Assembly (NCBI GenBank): GCA_010015805.1
Contig: ML978123.1
Location: 310,001-374,000, forward strand
Direction: 5' to 3'
DNA length: 64,000 nt
Source: Rhizodiscina lignyota
Lineage: Eukaryota
Part shown: positions 26,428 through 32,347 of the stretch, piece by piece
Position numbering within the stretch: the first letter of the stretch is position 1
Layout: each line of letters starts with the position of its first letter
Translations under genes and position numbers: made by a program
Notes under the pieces: generated by a model
Database searches by the model: none
Seen by the model: the letters and a program-made list of their open reading frames with translations, nothing else
Told to the model about the DNA's origin: nothing

Positions 26428-27060
26428 CTACGTGTGTCTCTTGTCTGGGGCAAAGTCACCGCCTCCGTCCCATTCTGCTTGCGAAGTAGAGTCGACATTG
26501 CGCCTATCCGGAGCGAAGTCACCACCTCCATCCCACTCGGCCTGGGAAGTGGAATCAACGTTGCGTTTATCCGGAGCAAAGTCACCGCCACCGTCCCACT
26601 CCGCTTGCGAAGTCGAATCGACATTGCGCCTGTCTGGAGCAAAGTCGCCGCCTCCATCCCACTCAGCCTGAGAAGTTGAATCGACGTTACGCCTATCCGG
26701 GGCGAAATCCCCACCACCGTCCCATTCAGCCTGTGAGGTTGAATCGACGTTACGCTTATCCGGCGCAAAGTCGCCACCTCCATCCCACTCAGCTTGGGAT
26801 GTCGAGTCGACATTGCGTCTATCCGGAGCGAAATCACCACCGCCGTCCCATTCAGCTTGGGAGGTTGAGTCGACATTGCGCTTGTCTGGAGCGAAATCAC
26901 CGCCTCCGTCCCATTCCGCTTGGGACGTAGAGTCGACGTTTCGCTTGACTGTAGTGGAGGTTAGCAATCGTGTTGGCCAGCAACATGGCAGCTTACCGAT
27001 CGGAACGGCTTGGACCGCCGCCAACATGCCCAAGAGGGCAGTGACGATTGATGCTCTCAT
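26428..27060 (-). CDS. Kex2-processed repeat protein (KEP); putative fungal RiPP (dikaritin-type) precursor, 194 aa after splicing
   Basis: Signal peptide MRASIVTALLGMLAAVQA. A 48-nt intron at 26949-26996 (GTAAGC...GCTAAC...CAG) gives VPIVKR, followed by 8 x NVDSTSQAEWDGGGDFAPD-[KR/RR] and HT-stop. Lies next to three DUF3328 genes. Confidence 0.92.
   Translation of the reverse strand: MRASIVTALLGMLAAVQAVPIGKLPCCWPTRLLTSTTVKRNVDSTSQAEWDGGGDFAPDKRNVDSTSQAEWDGGGDFAPDRRNVDSTSQAEWDGGGDFAPDKRNVDSTSQAEWDGGGDFAPDRRNVDSTSQAEWDGGGDFAPDRRNVDSTSQAEWDGGGDFAPDKRNVDSTSQAEWDGGGDFAPDRRNVDSTSQAEWDGGGDFAPDKRHT
26437..26940 (-). repeat. Coding tandem repeat, 8 x 63 bp
   Basis: The 21-codon unit is identical in protein except for K/R at the first basic residue (KR, RR, KR, RR, RR, KR, RR, KR). 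Many synonymous differences. Confidence 0.97.
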
Positions 27061-27140
27061 CGCAAGCAGTCTCTCTCAGAGTAGACTGTGAACGCTTGCT
27101 TGAAGAAAGAAAGAGTGTACAGTACGCGATGAAAACCCAC

Positions 27141-27146
27141 TTTATA
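27141..27146 (-). promoter_or_regulatory. Probable TATA box of the KEP precursor gene
   Basis: TATAAA on the minus strand about 80 nt upstream of the ATG at 27060. Confidence 0.45.
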
Positions 27147-28098
27147 CCTCTTTGACGGAGGCCGGCAGATTGCAGCTCTCTCACGGAGCTACGTCCGCAC
27201 TTGATCATCAGGAAGCTGACACTGTGGTCATCGTAACTCGGATCCACAGCTTCCCTACCTCCCTCGGGATATGCTGGTGGTCACGGATCGCCAGAACTTG
27301 CCGTCCATCGTCTTGCCGCCTCTGCTTCAGAGCGGGCTCCACAACAGCGATCTATTACAAGGACTGAAAAAAATGAGTGGATACTGTTTCTTCCGAGTGG
27401 TTTCAACTAAACCTCCTGTCGGCCGAATTGAGCCTCTTTGCAGCAGGAACAAGGCTGCCTCGTATTGCTGGACGATCGAAACCAATCATTCGCTTAGAAG
27501 GGCATCACGATGCGCTGTTACTCTTCATTCCTACTCTGTGCAATGCAGGTTTATGTCATATTAGCTAGTACAATAATTGTTGAGATGCGTTTCATTCATC
27601 CGATGAGCCTATTGCATTCTCAACTGAACTTCCAAGATAGATCAAGAGCCAGGATAGTAATCCTTCCCCTACTTTACTAGTAGAGTGCAGGGGTTGAACA
27701 GCATAAGTTTAGGGCTATAATACAAGGTTTCTAAACCTTGGCTAATGCTTGCAGTAACATCATTCCTACGGTGTAAACAGTGGCTCTACCCGCTGTGCGG
27801 CTGGAATGGCCAAATCGACCCCATTCCAAGATGTCAGTTGATCACAAGTGCCTAGCGGGGTTATCAGCGCACCCCTCAGTCTCGGGTTGTACAATGCCTG
27901 ACCCACTCAGCCCTGAAATTCGGAAAACCAATTTTCCCGCAGCATGGCATGAGACCGATGTCGGGAACACTATGGGGGCTATTTGGCGATTTTTCGTCTC
28001 TCCGCCACAACAGTAAACAGCAAGTTAGACGATACCTACTAGCTGAAGCCACGGACAGCGGTCGACTGAAGAGTAAAGAGCAAGGCCACATAATAATT

Positions 28099-28941: not shown

Positions 28942-28994
28942 AGCAAATTCAGTGTCATTGTATACTATATCTATCGTTGCCTTTGTTTTTACAC

Positions 28995-29979
28995 TTACGA
29001 TCCAGATAATTGAAATGTATCTTTGTCTGCGGGCTTATACTGCAAAATCTGGTCATCACCTACCAGCTCATGCTCTCTAGCCCACTCCTTGATTGCCTCA
29101 AAGTTTCGACACGTGTGCGTTATTTGAAGCCTTGGAAGCGGCTGCCTCCGAAGCGGCATCCATTGCCAGTACACTGTTGCAATGTCGCCATGGCACATAA
29201 TGGACTGGCGAATTGAATCGATACAGTGGTCTGTGGACTCTTGTCGTCATTATCCCGTAAGATTTTAGGAAAGAATGGAGGAAATTGAGCATACCATAGT
29301 GTTTTGCGGAAGTGCTCGTGTAATTGCGCTTTCCATCTTCAGTATAGTAATCGTCAAATTCATCCCAGTAGCGCTCTGGGTAGAATGTTTTCCTAAGCGC
29401 ATTGAGACAATGCAATTGATGGAAGACATCTAGCTCGACGACGTATTGGTCTGGCATTGTAGGAATGCTGGTTGTTCTATTCGGAAGTTGTGCTGCCTCT
29501 GAAGTGGAAATGCGGGAGACGCCATCTATCGACCAAATCAGTTTTGGTACGAAAAGTAGATATTTCGACTTACATTGATACAGGTCTTCCCATAAATGAT
29601 CTGCTTCGTCTGTCGGGATGCCATCTTCTTCTCGGCCCATATAAGGCCCTTTGGTCACGAAGTTCTCGGCGAAGACTCGAGTTTCATATTCGATCACGTC
29701 CTGAGCTGGAGAGTAGATGCCTTGGCTTGGATCGGTACACTTCCGCGTCTGCGTCTTCTCCTTTATCCAAAGGATCAGAAAGAGCGCTGTGAGAATGTAA
29801 GGCACACACAGAGTGCATATCTTCCATATACAACTATGTCTCGTGCGTGGTGCATAGCGCGCTGATGGGTAACTCTCCAGACTCTCGGCATCAGTTGAAT
29901 ATCTTTGCTCTTTCAGCAGCTCTGTGCGTTGTTCAACGTCGACTGTCGACTCGCTAGCTATTGATGGAGTTGTTGACAT
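28995..29979 (-). CDS. UstYa/DUF3328 family oxidase 2 (exons 29979-29574, 29525-29295, 29230-28995)
   Basis: TM anchor, YSPAQDVIEYE and ELDVFHQLHCLNALRK. Splicing intron 29231-29294 builds KHYDHCIDSIRQSIMCHGD. C-terminal HTCRNFEAIKEWA. Confidence 0.93.
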
Positions 29980-31266
29980 GGCGATTCCATGGGCCTTAGA
30001 GGTTGAAACTGCTATGCCTGTGGATAGTTCTTTCCCTCAACGCCTCTGCGTTCCTTGCCATCATCGTCTCCGACATCGCAAGAGGAAGATATCCGCCATG
30101 CTTACATGGACTACTCCATGTCGTTGCATATGGTCAGCCGACCTGTCGTGAAACATGCTTTTGAACTTCTTTTTCGTACTCCGCTACTCCGCAAATACGG
30201 GGATCTGCAACGCTGAGCGGCTGGACAACATGGTTCACTAGCGAAACATATGCGGTCCAGCGAATACGAACAAGACTCTCCACTAAGGCTGAGATGGAAG
30301 GTCAGAACGGGAGCTATCCCACTTGTTAAAATTTGATCTTCTTGACTGTAATTATGACGACAGGGCAAGGCACGCCGCACATCGCCCTTTTTGGAGACTG
30401 CTGAGGAAAACGCTAAGTACTGGTGAGACGGCCGCAAATGCCTAATATGGAATATACCCTACCGAGCGATCAATCTTATACTTCTTCCAGTTATTGTGTC
30501 TGAAGATGTGTATGTATAGACGTCGTGTATAGGTTCTGTGGCCAAAGAGCTACTTGCACGAAAGCGTTCCAACATGCAGACGCTGCGGAAGGACTTGTAT
30601 CGGGGAACGGATCCCGCTCAGGTCCGCCCCCCGCCCCGCTAGTGGGCATTAGTCTTAGGCTTGATAAAGCTTATCAAAGCCGCTGCTCCACCAAGCTGCC
30701 TTAAGGCCTTTAAGCGAACCTTAAATCGACCGTCTGCGATGCCATGGCATGCCTTGTCATCCTGTCGTCCAACACTCACCGCATTCTAGACTAAAGTGGA
30801 AGTTCCTAAACTCTCACCTTGTGCTCCGCCATATACTGCTTGGATGGCGAATATTCAAGCTGAAAGTAACTACTGCGGCCTACGTCGTATTAGGCACTAT
30901 GCACCGCTGTCTGCAGATCACAGGATCTTGGATGATCGGCCAAGCGGACATCTGCTCGGATCTCAACGACCTGGTTAAAGAGCATGAAAGAGGCTGTGAT
31001 ACGGTTGATCCTGTACCGCCCTAACGAAGTGGCAAATCTTCTATGCGCAGCGATTATTTGCAGGAACCGAACCATGTGCATTCGGCCAGTTGCAGGCATC
31101 GCTCATGACCAACTGGATGCGGCAGTTGACATGCAGTATCATGAGAGCAGTTTCTGACAAGATTCCCGCTGATTTTTCGGATTTGAATCGAGTTGAGCGT
31201 ATACCAGGTCAGACGTCGTGCCCATCTTGCACCGGATTTCCCTCCTTCTGGGGAACCAAAAGCATC

Positions 31267-32347
31267 ATGTATCAAGACAAGTCACCGCGAGATTCAAGTG
31301 ATAAGGACGCTGAAGAACCCTTGCTTGAAGAAGAGACATTTACAAGATCTTCACGATCAAGGCGCTGTCTCTCACTCTTGCCATGGATACTGACGGCCGT
31401 CCTTGCTACTGCCTGTGTTTTACTCCTGCTCGATCGCAGAGCCTATCTCCGCCATGGATCATTCGATCGTGGATATTCGACTGACTTTGGTACGCTTCTC
31501 AACGAGCTTCTCGCCAAGGTATGCTAACGCAGGTGTTAAGCCGGTGCCAAACCATTCATTAGATTGAAGGACGTTCGGTTCACTGGTAGTCCGGAATTTG
31601 GACCAGATGGCGAGGAGAGAGTCCCTCTTGATTCCCCCAGTCTTCAATATATTGGCAATGGCAAAGCGGTTGATGACGCTTGGACAGGGTTGGTGAAGGG
31701 TTCGTCACAGCGTCGTACCTCTACAGGAAGGAAATTGACAATCTTAGACCGATACTTCTTATTGACAGACGATGAAGCCAGAGAAGCATGGGGTTCAGAA
31801 TATACAGAATACTGGGATGAGCTGAGAGGGGGATATCTCGCAGGGTATGTCATCACAAACAAGTGATTCCTAATGACACAATGATACTAACGACTCGTAG
31901 ACTTGATATGTTCCATACTCTTCATTGTTTGGTTAGCGGAAAATTTCAGATATGGTCGACGACCACTGACCATTGCAGGACCATATCCGAATGGCGTTCT
32001 ATCCCGAGCTGTACCCTGAAAACCCCATTCATGGCCAGATTCATAGAGGTACGAAGCACTGAATGACTGAATCATTCCAAAAGTATTGCAGAGACTGACG
32101 TATCGCGCTAGATCATTGCGTTGACCACCTCCGCCAAATGATCATGTGCAATGCCGACTTGACCGTCATACCGACAAAGTTCTTCAGTGGAATCGGCAAG
32201 AACTACATCAACTCAGACAGGAGACACACGTGCCGTGACTTTTCAAAGATTCGCGAGTGGACGACAAGCAGGTACAATGGCACATTGGCCGTAAAGGCAC
32301 GCAACAAGGACGGGTCGCCGAGAGACGCGTTTTTCGTTATTCCGTAG
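31267..32347 (+). CDS. UstYa/DUF3328 family oxidase 3 (6 exons)
   Basis: Introns 31490-31540, 31700-31747, 31845-31900, 31932-31978 and 32049-32111 give a TM anchor, then GYSTDFAGAKPFIRLKDVRFTG...VDDAW...GLDMFHTLHCLDHIRMAFY...IHRDHCVDHLRQMIMCNADLT...HTCRDFSKIREW. Confidence 0.9.

What the first reader, a model, noticed from the sequence alone, without database searches (positions are those of the whole stretch)
26428..32347. Compact putative fungal RiPP (dikaritin-type) cluster: repeat precursor plus three UstYa/DUF3328 oxidases
Seen: a signal-peptide protein with 8 dibasic-delimited repeats, immediately followed by three membrane-anchored proteins that each keep two HxxHC motifs, all within 6 kb. 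Established: this pairing defines the ustiloxin (UstA/UstYa,b), phomopsin (PhomA/PhomY), asperipin-2a (AprA/AprY) and victorin (VicA/VicY) pathways, in which Kex2-type cleavage releases peptides that DUF3328 enzymes oxidatively modify. Inferred: this is an intact cluster making a modified, probably cyclic, peptide that I do not recognise. I see no tyrosinase, methyltransferase, S41 peptidase, MFS transporter or cluster transcription factor adjacent, so it may be a minimal system in which the three DUF3328s do all the tailoring. Automated gene callers could miss it because two of the oxidases are split by short introns.
Basis: partly seen in the sequence, partly recalled or inferred. Interest (0 to 1): 0.95.

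Follow-up and report, generated by a model that had tools for sequence, protein, structure and literature searches.

The report
Fungal repeat-peptide gene with three copper oxidases
This is a real, compact four-gene fungal cluster of a familiar type (a secreted repeat peptide beside three UstYa/DUF3328 oxidases) that probably makes an oxidatively modified peptide nobody has yet isolated.

Summary
At 26428-27060(-) lies a secreted precursor with eight 21-residue units, NVDSTSQAEWDGGGDFAPD[K/R]R. Residues 1-19 are identical in all eight copies, although the DNA copies are only 80% alike and 20 of 22 variable sites are third codon positions. Three genes follow (Y1 28099-28941+, Y2 28995-29979-, Y3 31267-32347+). 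Each matches Pfam UstYa/PF11807 and has one membrane helix and an HxxHC...HxxHC motif.

The pairing is conserved. In Oidiodendron maius a Y1-like protein, a Y2-like protein and a precursor with nearly the same repeat carry consecutive accessions. Y1/Y2 pairs recur in Talaromyces and on an unnamed contig. A Whalleya precursor keeps only W-D-G-G-x-D-F, the likely core.

The flanks are housekeeping genes, with no tyrosinase, methyltransferase, peptidase or NRPS.

Best reading: a dikaritin-type RiPP cluster with no tyrosine in its precursor. It is a new member of a known, very common kind: 1758 repeat precursors with nearby DUF3328 genes were already catalogued (PMC7329392). Product, expression and chemistry are untested. 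A Y1-Y2 dimer model passed its controls but cannot tell a heterodimer from homodimers. Interest is moderate (0.45), not 0.95.

The parts
26428..27060 (-). Precursor gene (Kex2-processed repeat protein). Exons are 27060-26997 and 26948-26428, giving 194 aa when spliced. The unspliced ORF is 210 aa.
   Evidence: ORF, gene model. No Pfam family. Relatives are the O. maius protein KIN09167.1 (75% identity over 108 aa) and fragments P0011 and P0051.
27007..27060 (-). Predicted signal peptide (first 18 residues)
   Evidence: By inspection of the translation: basic residue at position 2, hydrophobic core, small residues at -3/-1. No signal-peptide predictor was available.
26949..26996 (-). Candidate in-frame 48-nt intron of the precursor (GTAAGC ... 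GCTAAC ... CAG)
   Evidence: Read in the sequence and placed. Splicing gives 24 residues before the first repeat, against 23 from the internal Met in the O. maius homologue. Not confirmed by RNA.
26437..26940 (-). Eight tandem 63-nt units, each encoding NVDSTSQAEWDGGGDFAPD followed by KR or RR
   Evidence: The peptides are identical, DNA identity is 80%, and 20 of 22 variable sites are third codon positions.
27141..27146 (-). TATAAA box 81-86 nt upstream of the precursor ATG
   Evidence: Read in the sequence. Function not tested.
27061..28098 (.). Divergent intergenic region between the precursor and Y1
   Evidence: Gene coordinates. No k-mers shared with the Y2/Y3 intergenic region beyond shuffled controls.
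28099..28941 (+). Y1, a DUF3328/UstYa oxidase of 280 aa with no intron. HQLHC at 183 and HAAHC at 211. Membrane helix at about residues 54-82.
   Evidence: Pfam PF11807, E 3.5e-29. Identical to public protein P0001. The AlphaFold2 model puts helices at 54-82, 183-199 and 206-224, with mean pLDDT 60.
28995..29979 (-). Y2, a DUF3328/UstYa oxidase of 290 aa. Exons are 29979-29574, 29525-29295 and 29230-28995. Introns are 29573-29526 (48 nt) and 29294-29231 (64 nt). HQLHC at 171 and HYDHC at 211.
   Evidence: Pfam. The spliced model is 100% identical over 186 aa to the public model KAF2101282.1, so both junctions agree.
29980..31266 (.). Divergent intergenic region between Y2 and Y3
   Evidence: Gene coordinates. 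ORF 30114-30458(-) has no Pfam family.
31267..32347 (+). Y3, a divergent DUF3328/UstYa oxidase of 271 aa as predicted. Exons are 31267-31489, 31541-31699, 31748-31844, 31901-31931, 31979-32048 and 32112-32347. HTLHC at 165 and HRDHC at 192.
   Evidence: Splice sites chosen by consensus and reading frame. Last exon matches Pfam at 53.7 bits. The whole model scores 108.9 bits against a local DUF3328 profile. No orthologue among the fetched proteins, and a long branch in the tree. This model is not confirmed by RNA or by any public gene model.
32769..33653 (+). Neighbouring 294-aa multi-pass membrane protein of no known family. Whether it belongs to the cluster is unknown.
   Evidence: No Pfam family. 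The Atlas returns only ascomycete hypothetical proteins at scores 0.90-0.91.

Best explanation
This is a dikaritin-type fungal RiPP cluster.

1. The precursor enters the secretory pathway through its signal peptide.
2. A Kex2-type protease cuts after each KR/RR. Carboxypeptidase trimming would then give eight copies of one acidic 19-mer, NVDSTSQAEWDGGGDFAPD (1966.78 Da unmodified).
3. Three membrane-anchored DUF3328/UstYa enzymes, with their catalytic domains in the lumen, oxidise it. By homology these are O2-dependent binuclear-copper enzymes that act as disulfide-linked dimers.
4. The likely core is W-D-G-G-x-D-F. The N-terminal half of the unit would serve as a recognition sequence. With no Tyr or Cys anywhere in the precursor, the chemistry cannot be the Tyr-O ether of ustiloxin-type products.

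**Shown:**
- the gene structures
- family membership of the three enzymes
- selection on the peptide
- conserved linkage of the precursor with Y1 and Y2

**Inferred:**
- secretion and Kex2 cleavage
- copper dependence
- which residues are modified
- that all three enzymes act on this peptide
For: **Precursor.** Eight identical 19-residue peptides are kept despite saturated synonymous change, with nine dibasic sites.

**Enzymes.**
- Three of three neighbouring genes hit PF11807 above the cut-off, and the spliced Y3 matches a local DUF3328 profile.
- Each has one hydrophobic N-terminal helix, the HxxHC(x)nHxxHC motif, and four lumenal Cys at equivalent places.
- These are the features that define the family in the CctR study (PMC12435403, whole text parts 1-2 read). 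That study shows Cu, O2 and dimer dependence, and reports the same for AprY and ApnU.

**Conserved linkage.**
- O. maius KIN09165.1 (Y1-like), KIN09166.1 (Y2-like, 74% identity) and KIN09167.1 (precursor with four NVDSVSAAEWDGGGDFAPDRR-type units) have consecutive accessions on one 6.6-Mb contig.
- T. proteolyticus KAH8694221.1 and KAH8694222.1 are Y2-like and Y1-like.
- One unnamed 9336-nt contig carries both a Y1-like and a Y2-like protein, and these are sisters of the window's genes in a quick tree.
- Gene order differs between the window and O. maius, yet linkage is kept.

**Likely core.** A Whalleya microplaca signal-peptide/KR repeat protein shares only W-D-G-G-V-D-F.

**Context.** The flanks are housekeeping genes and there is no NRPS/PKS, so the DUF3328 genes have no other evident substrate gene in 64 kb.

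**Dimer model of the lumenal parts of Y1 and Y2.**
- The verdict was that the model supports binding but does not show it. Score 0.77, best of 3 controls 0.00.
- That mark was reached by 51 of 78 solved complexes and 2 of 108 mismatched pairs. The runs agree in at least 76% of contacts, and the partner's pLDDT is at least 73.
- The interface is formed by the two motif-bearing helices of each chain.
- Y1 C225 touches Y2 C253, and Y1 C259 touches Y2 C225. This is the kind of reciprocal inter-chain Cys pairing reported for CctR.
Against: - No product, cleavage or modification has been observed.
- The repeat has no Tyr, the residue cross-linked in ustiloxins, phomopsins and asperipin-2a. The chemistry is therefore a guess.
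- Y3 has no orthologue among the proteins I fetched, sits on a very long branch, and its five-intron model is unconfirmed.
- In T. proteolyticus the Y1/Y2 pair has no annotated intact precursor beside it. The only look-alike (P0020) is degenerate and lies 470 accession numbers away. Y1/Y2 may therefore work without this peptide there, or the precursor may be unannotated.
- Adjacency in other genomes is inferred from accession order and contig length, not from coordinates.
- Most Kex2-processed repeat proteins (78% in PMC7329392) have no DUF3328 neighbour and are thought to give linear peptides.
- The dimer pass cannot tell a Y1-Y2 heterodimer from generic family dimerisation. The tool notes that close cousins of a true partner also pass.
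Confidence: 0.75

Rival explanations
1. The precursor is an ordinary Kex2-processed repeat protein that releases unmodified linear peptides, for example signalling or pheromone-like peptides. The three DUF3328 enzymes act on some other substrate, and the genes are merely neighbours or co-regulated.
For: In the census, 78% of 7878 such precursors have no DUF3328 neighbour (PMC7329392). The language-model look-alikes include an alpha-mating-factor precursor cluster at 0.82, a weak lead only. The repeat has no Tyr or Cys. The T. proteolyticus Y1/Y2 pair has no intact annotated precursor beside it.
Against: Linkage of precursor, Y1-like and Y2-like genes is kept in O. maius, a different class, despite a changed gene order. 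No alternative substrate gene (NRPS, PKS or a second repeat protein) lies in 64 kb. In the census, mating-factor-type precursors almost never have DUF3328 neighbours.
Confidence: 0.12
2. The repeat protein is a secreted, uncleaved acidic Asp/Gly-rich repeat protein, for example metal- or wall-binding, and not a peptide precursor.
For: HMMER finds weak similarity to long repeat proteins with [W/Y]-[D/N]-G-G-x-x-F-[A/D]-P units that have no dibasic sites, such as P0012 and P0027. The unit carries five acidic residues and no basic ones outside the KR/RR.
Against: A dibasic pair closes every one of the eight units and precedes the first, and the same holds in the O. maius, Whalleya and P0051 relatives. 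At position 20 only K and R occur, which keeps the site dibasic.
Confidence: 0.05
3. The cluster is silent or decaying and makes nothing.
For: The precursor was not returned from the public protein collections. Y3 is very divergent. A degenerate precursor-like gene exists in T. proteolyticus.
Against: All four reading frames are open with canonical splice sites. All six HxxHC motifs are intact. The eight repeats show strict purifying selection.
Confidence: 0.05

Closest known systems
Asperipin-2a cluster (AprA precursor, AprY DUF3328 cyclase)
   Same: A small cluster built around a Kex2-type repeat precursor and a DUF3328 enzyme, with no tyrosinase. AprY is reported as a copper- and O2-dependent dimer (as cited in PMC12435403).
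   Different: It has one DUF3328 gene (PMC7329392) against three here. Its cross-links go through Tyr, and this repeat has none. That its core is a short Tyr-rich hexapeptide is recalled, not checked. Here a 19-residue unit is conserved.
Ustiloxin cluster (UstA, UstYa/UstYb, UstQ, UstM)
   Same: A signal peptide, a multi-copy core cut by Kex2, and two different DUF3328 enzymes needed together (PMC10540207 passages). The same Pfam family, PF11807.
   Different: Ustiloxin needs a tyrosinase and a methyltransferase and cross-links Tyr. None of these is present here.
Phomopsin and victorin clusters
   Same: A repeat precursor plus several DUF3328 paralogues. Five are given for phomopsin in PMC7329392.
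   Different: Those clusters carry further tailoring genes, and their cores are unrelated in sequence. The victorin details are recalled and were not checked here.
Epichloecyclin cluster (gigA, gigB, gigC, kexB)
   Same: A repeat precursor plus a DUF3328 cyclase in a four-gene cluster (PMC10540207 abstract and passages).
   Different: It includes a SET-domain methyltransferase and its own subtilisin-like KexB. Cyclisation is proposed through a conserved Tyr. Here there are three DUF3328 genes and nothing else.
CctR, ApnU and AprY (biochemically characterised DUF3328 enzymes)
   Same: An N-terminal cytosolic tail, one membrane helix, a lumenal helical domain, HxxHC(x)nHxxHC on paired helices, and conserved Cys after the second motif. 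The predicted dimer interface runs through the motif helices.
   Different: CctR hydroxylates a non-ribosomal peptide and ApnU is a halogenase. Copper binding and activity of Y1-Y3 are untested. Y2 is only 33-34% identical to proteins auto-named 'cyclochlorotine biosynthesis protein O'.
Plant burpitides, lyciumin type (BURP-domain copper cyclases)
   Same: Works-like comparison only. These are binuclear-copper peptide cyclases that link a Trp indole nitrogen to a carbon (PMC12186524 passage). That is a precedent for Trp-based cross-links by copper enzymes on Gly-rich cores.
   Different: The protein fold and family are unrelated, and they are from plants. No evidence here that Trp is the modified residue.
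Yeast alpha-factor and other unmodified Kex2-processed repeat proteins
   Same: A signal peptide with tandem identical peptides separated by KR/RR.
   Different: Such genes are almost never next to DUF3328 genes (PMC7329392).

Membership tests
Kex2-processed repeat protein (KEP) | N-terminal signal peptide | tested here: met
   By inspection of the translation only. No predictor was run.
Kex2-processed repeat protein (KEP) | Tandem, near-identical peptide units separated by KR/RR | tested here: met
   Eight units and nine dibasic sites.
Kex2-processed repeat protein (KEP) | Actual cleavage by a Kex2-type protease in the Golgi | not testable with these tools
   No genome is held for the window and there are no peptide data.
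Dikaritin-type RiPP cluster | DUF3328/UstYa gene(s) within a few genes of the repeat precursor | tested here: met
   Three genes within 5.3 kb of the precursor. Only these three occur in the window.
Dikaritin-type RiPP cluster | Tyr in the core, forming an aryl ether macrocycle | tested here: not met
   No Tyr anywhere in the 194-aa precursor. The census reports that 65.6% of repeat sequences in DUF3328-linked precursors contain Tyr, so about a third lack it.
Dikaritin-type RiPP cluster | Tyrosinase, methyltransferase, and transporter or peptidase in the cluster (original five-gene definition, as quoted in PMC12048977) | tested here: not met
   None of these is among the Pfam hits of the 44 ORF translations scanned across 64 kb. 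The same paper notes that functional clusters lacking some of these genes exist. Genes made only of short exons could have been missed.
Dikaritin-type RiPP cluster | A modified (cyclic) peptide product derived from the repeat | not testable with these tools
   Needs expression and mass spectrometry.
DUF3328/UstYa (PF11807) copper oxidases | Match to PF11807 above the gathering score | tested here: met
   Y1 scores 102.7 bits. Y2 scores 93.7 bits, plus 44.1 bits or 68.9 bits for the last exon. The Y3 last exon scores 53.7 bits. The cut-off is 25 bits.
DUF3328/UstYa (PF11807) copper oxidases | HxxHC(x)nHxxHC motif | tested here: met
   Present in 3 of 3 genes. In the Y1 model each motif lies on a helix.
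DUF3328/UstYa (PF11807) copper oxidases | Single N-terminal membrane helix with a lumenal C-terminal domain | tested here: met
   Hydropathy windows score 2.4-2.7 in all three. The Y1 model has a helix at 54-82 with pLDDT 84-97. Topology is inferred from CctR and from N-x-S/T sites after the helix.
DUF3328/UstYa (PF11807) copper oxidases | Dimer through the motif helices and C-terminal disulfides | tested here: inconclusive
   The Y1+Y2 model scores 0.77 against 0.00 for the best of 3 controls. That mark was reached by 51 of 78 solved and 2 of 108 mismatched pairs. The runs agree in at least 76% of contacts and the partner's pLDDT is at least 73. It is a prediction only, and homodimers were not modelled.
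DUF3328/UstYa (PF11807) copper oxidases | Binding of two copper ions and O2-dependent activity | not testable with these tools
   Known for CctR, and reported for AprY and ApnU.

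The most novel reading that the evidence does not exclude
This could be the first recognised member of a tyrosine-free dikaritin family kept in at least three classes of Pezizomycotina: Dothideomycetes, Leotiomycetes and Sordariomycetes. 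Related enzymes occur in Eurotiomycetes and in lichen fungi.

- Paired DUF3328 copper enzymes, possibly a Y1-Y2 heterodimer, would install a tryptophan-based cross-link in a W-D-G-G-x-D-F core.
- That would be a fungal counterpart of the Trp-to-carbon links made by plant BURP copper cyclases.
- The product may stay a long, very acidic peptide of about 19 residues, since the whole unit is conserved, rather than the 4-6-residue macrocycles known so far.
Probability: 0.3. Interest if true: 0.7.

Novelty: new member of a known kind. Interest (0 to 1): 0.45.

Why it matters
DUF3328 enzymes were shown only in 2025 to be binuclear-copper oxidases, and few of their reactions are known. This is a minimal cluster: one precursor, three divergent DUF3328 genes and nothing else. 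Its peptide lacks tyrosine and is under extreme purifying selection. That makes it a clean system for three questions:

- What do these enzymes do to a Trp/Phe/Asp/Gly core?
- Do two paralogues act as one heterodimer?
- Which part of a repeat unit is recognition sequence and which is core?

The peptide family seems to have escaped the main census of repeat precursors. One likely reason is that the O. maius gene model starts too early, which hides its signal peptide. Another is that the window's own precursor appears to be unannotated.

Tried and rejected
- **RNA evidence.** No RNA holder was listed for 26300-32500. Only one run of unknown kind holds the DNA. Read laying was therefore not used, and expression and splicing stay open.
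- **Whole genome.** None is held for this window.
- **Metagenome scans.** Scans with the precursor (44 pattern matches) and with a Y1 alignment (272 pattern matches) gave no confirmed relative.
- **Word-indexed search with the precursor.** Nothing at E<=0.01 among 8000 candidates of 115-368 aa.
- **HMMER representatives search.** It gave 53 hits. I read 11 and judged 4 to be true precursor relatives (P0011, P0051, P0029, P0020). The other 7 looked like unrelated repeat proteins, and 42 were not inspected.
- **Shared promoter words** between the two divergent intergenic regions. None at k=10-12, and 12 against 10.3 expected at k=9.
- **Solved structures.** No relative of the Y1 family (best E 0.47).
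- **AlphaFold2 model of Y1.** Mean pLDDT 60 and pTM 0.32. This is too weak for a fold search, so none was run.
- **ESM Atlas.** Only sub-0.9 leads for the precursor, and unnamed ascomycete clusters at 0.90-0.91 for the neighbouring membrane protein.
- **Census supplements (PMC7329392).**
  - Text searches found no KIN09167, no 'KIN09', no Rhizodiscina, no Whalleya and no WDGGGDF or WDGGVDF.
  - From their size the tables appear to hold accessions rather than sequences. Absence of this peptide type from other species in them cannot be excluded.
- **Literature.**
  - A search for 'UstYa' mostly returned an author surname.
  - Searches for DUF3328 with tryptophan, and for UstYa with RiPP, precursor and tryptophan, listed no fungal DUF3328 Trp cross-link.
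  - The JACS 2025 paper on AprY is not held. I know it only from citations.
- **Earlier notes of this scan.** Nothing on this genome or on look-alikes.

Full report
**1. What is there**

The window is fungal DNA of about 50% G+C. No whole genome is held for it.

The finding's span, 26428-32347, holds four genes in two divergent pairs:
- the precursor (-) and Y1 (+)
- Y2 (-) and Y3 (+), with Y1 and Y2 converging

The protein database holds Y1 letter for letter as the window's own protein, on a 3,236,797-base contig. It also holds a partial model of Y2, KAF2101282.1, on a contig of the same length. Its source labels that model Rhizodiscina lignyota, a Dothideomycete of the order Aulographales. 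That is very probably the source organism.

**2. The precursor**

ORF 26428-27060(-) encodes a hydrophobic N-terminus and then eight 21-residue units, NVDSTSQAEWDGGGDFAPD followed by KR or RR.

The 48 bases at 26949-26996 have the marks of a fungal intron: GTAAGC, GCTAAC, CAG, and a length divisible by three.
- Spliced, the protein is 194 aa. It consists of a signal peptide, a short propeptide ending in Lys-Arg, eight units, and two final residues.
- This gives 24 residues before the first repeat. The Oidiodendron homologue has 23, counted from its internal Met.
- No RNA data exist to confirm the intron.

The eight DNA copies are 80% identical to each other, yet residues 1-19 never change.
- 20 of the 22 variable sites are third codon positions.
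- Every codon that can vary synonymously does so.
- The only amino-acid change is K/R at position 20, which keeps the site dibasic.

The copies are therefore old and each one is under strict selection at the peptide level. The precursor has no Tyr and no Cys.

**3. The three oxidases**

*Y1* (280 aa, no intron) matches PF11807 at 3.5e-29.

*Y2* (290 aa) matches PF11807 at 1.9e-26. It has two introns. My junctions reproduce the public partial model exactly over 186 residues.

*Y3* needs five short introns to give an open frame of 271 aa.
- Its last exon passes Pfam at 53.7 bits.
- The spliced protein matches a profile I built from 27 fetched DUF3328 proteins over nearly its whole length, at 108.9 bits.
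- It has no close relative among the fetched proteins and sits on a very long branch in a quick tree of 31 rows.
- Its model is the least certain part of this report.

The three are only 27-34% identical to each other, so they are old paralogues. Both Y2 introns sit at the same position and phase as two of the Y3 introns (read).

All three have:
- a single hydrophobic helix near the N-terminus
- two HxxHC motifs
- four lumenal Cys at equivalent places

A low-confidence AlphaFold2 model of Y1 (pLDDT 60) puts the membrane helix at 54-82 and each motif on a helix, at 183-199 and 206-224.

These features are the ones that the CctR study uses to define DUF3328 enzymes. It describes them as membrane-anchored, lumenal, disulfide-linked dimers with a binuclear copper site that use O2 (PMC12435403, parts 1-2 read). 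The same paper reports like properties for AprY and ApnU.

**4. Surroundings**

Pfam scans of 44 ORF translations across the 64 kb found only housekeeping-type genes:
- an anion (HCO3/borate-type) transporter
- a tRNA adenosine deaminase
- translation GTPases
- a TatD nuclease
- a carboxylesterase
- an NmrA-like protein
- Phe-tRNA synthetase beta chain
- a short-chain dehydrogenase, and others

No tyrosinase, methyltransferase, peptidase, MFS transporter, zinc-cluster regulator, NRPS or PKS was found.

Only three DUF3328 genes occur in the window, and the only strong coding tandem repeat near them is the precursor. A 294-aa membrane protein of no family lies just downstream of Y3. Whether it belongs to the cluster is unknown.

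**5. Relatives and linkage**

The precursor itself was not returned by either large protein search, so it seems to be unannotated.

True relatives of the precursor:
- *O. maius Zn KIN09167.1* has four units of NVDSVSAAEWDGGGDFAPD[R/K][R/K]. It is 75% identical over 108 aa.
- *Short unnamed fragments* P0011 and P0051.
- *Whalleya microplaca protein* has a signal peptide and KR-delimited 21-residue units that share only W-D-G-G-V-D-F.

This pattern is why I place the core at W-D-G-G-x-D-F. The conserved N-terminal half would then be a recognition sequence. This is an inference.

Linkage in other genomes:
- In O. maius, the Y1-like protein (KIN09165.1), the Y2-like protein (KIN09166.1) and the precursor (KIN09167.1) have consecutive accessions on one contig.
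- In Talaromyces proteolyticus the Y2-like and Y1-like proteins are consecutive, KAH8694221.1 and KAH8694222.1.
- An unnamed 9336-base contig carries both a Y1-like and a Y2-like protein.

Adjacency is inferred from accession order and contig length. I could not fetch the DNA.

Y2 is unusually conserved: 78% identity to Talaromyces and 74% to Oidiodendron over 199 residues. Y2-like proteins also occur in several lichen-forming fungi.

**6. How it most likely works**

By analogy with ustiloxin, asperipin-2a, phomopsin and epichloecyclin (passages read), the likely course is as follows:
- The precursor is secreted.
- It is cut after each dibasic pair and trimmed to a 19-mer of 1966.78 Da.
- It is oxidised in the ER/Golgi lumen by the DUF3328 enzymes.

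Known reactions of the family start with C(sp3)-H abstraction by a copper-oxygen species.

With no Tyr available, the cross-link or other modification must involve Trp, Phe, Asp or Gly. Plant BURP copper cyclases give a precedent for Trp-indole-N to carbon links.

A model of the lumenal parts of Y1 and Y2 together passed the tool's test:
- The score was 0.77, and the best of 3 controls scored 0.00.
- That mark was reached by 51 of 78 solved complexes and 2 of 108 mismatched pairs.
- The runs agree in at least 76% of contacts, and the partner's pLDDT is at least 73.
- The interface is formed by the four motif-bearing helices.
- Reciprocal Cys contacts appear: Y1 C225 with Y2 C253, and Y1 C259 with Y2 C225. 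This is the kind of inter-monomer Cys pairing reported for CctR.

No solved relative exists, so this pass is not memory of a structure. It still does not separate a heterodimer from the generic dimerisation of the family.

**7. Comparison and novelty**

The cluster meets the core definition of a dikaritin-type cluster: a repeat precursor with signal peptide and Kex2 sites, plus DUF3328 genes. It fails the Tyr, tyrosinase and methyltransferase features of the original definition, which are known not to be universal.

Such clusters are common. In the census, 1758 of 7878 Kex2-type precursors have DUF3328 neighbours, with on average 1.7 DUF3328 genes each. Tyr is absent from about a third of their repeats.

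This peptide type was not found in that census by the accessions, species names or motifs that I could search. The literature searches I ran listed no characterised product for it.

I therefore rate it a new member of a known kind. It is a good, clean genome-mining lead of moderate interest.

Noticed in passing
window 29526-29573 and 29231-29294 (Y2); 31700-31747 and 32049-32111 (Y3): Both Y2 introns sit at the same codon position and phase as two of the five Y3 introns. One is an in-frame 48-nt intron six residues after a conserved Trp. The other splits the Asp codon inside the second H-x-D-H-C motif. Unnamed Y2 orthologues (P0071, P0076, P0077) read through at the same two places. The paralogues therefore share an old gene structure, while Y1 has no intron.
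   Followed up: partly
proteins P0012, P0027 and P0019: Long repeat proteins from unnamed or metagenomic sources carry units such as Y-D-G-G-x-x-F-A-P or D-W-N-G-G-K-D-F-D-P-G-K. These resemble the W-D-G-G-G-D-F-A-P-D stretch but lack dibasic sites. I could not tell whether this is chance, convergence or a shared structural motif.
   Followed up: no
protein P0020 (T. proteolyticus KAH8693751.1): This 120-aa protein looks like a decayed copy of the precursor. Its KR-delimited units still show I-D-S-x-S and D-G-G-G-D-M-A-P. It is on the same scaffold as the Talaromyces Y1/Y2 pair but 470 accession numbers away.
   Followed up: no
protein P0064 (O. maius KIN09167.1): The public model starts 28 residues upstream of a Met that begins a typical signal peptide. 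This probable start-site error may explain why the protein is missing from the census of secreted repeat precursors.
   Followed up: partly
window 32769-33653 (+): A 294-aa multi-pass membrane protein with no Pfam family lies directly downstream of Y3. It has only unnamed ascomycete look-alikes. It could be a transporter or immunity protein of the cluster, or it could be unrelated.
   Followed up: partly
window 34001-36049 (-): A 682-aa ORF with no significant Pfam family. The only hit is a sub-threshold MAD match at 15.9 bits.
   Followed up: no
window 48824-49277 (+), inside ORF 48669-49769: A second set of tandem repeats (periods 147, 33 and 12) lies inside a 367-aa ORF with no Pfam family.
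   Followed up: no
window 26437-26940 (-): Synonymous sites among the eight repeat copies are saturated. DNA identity stays near 80% while the peptide is invariant. That level of DNA divergence might also protect the array from recombination or repeat-induced mutation. This idea was not tested.
   Followed up: no
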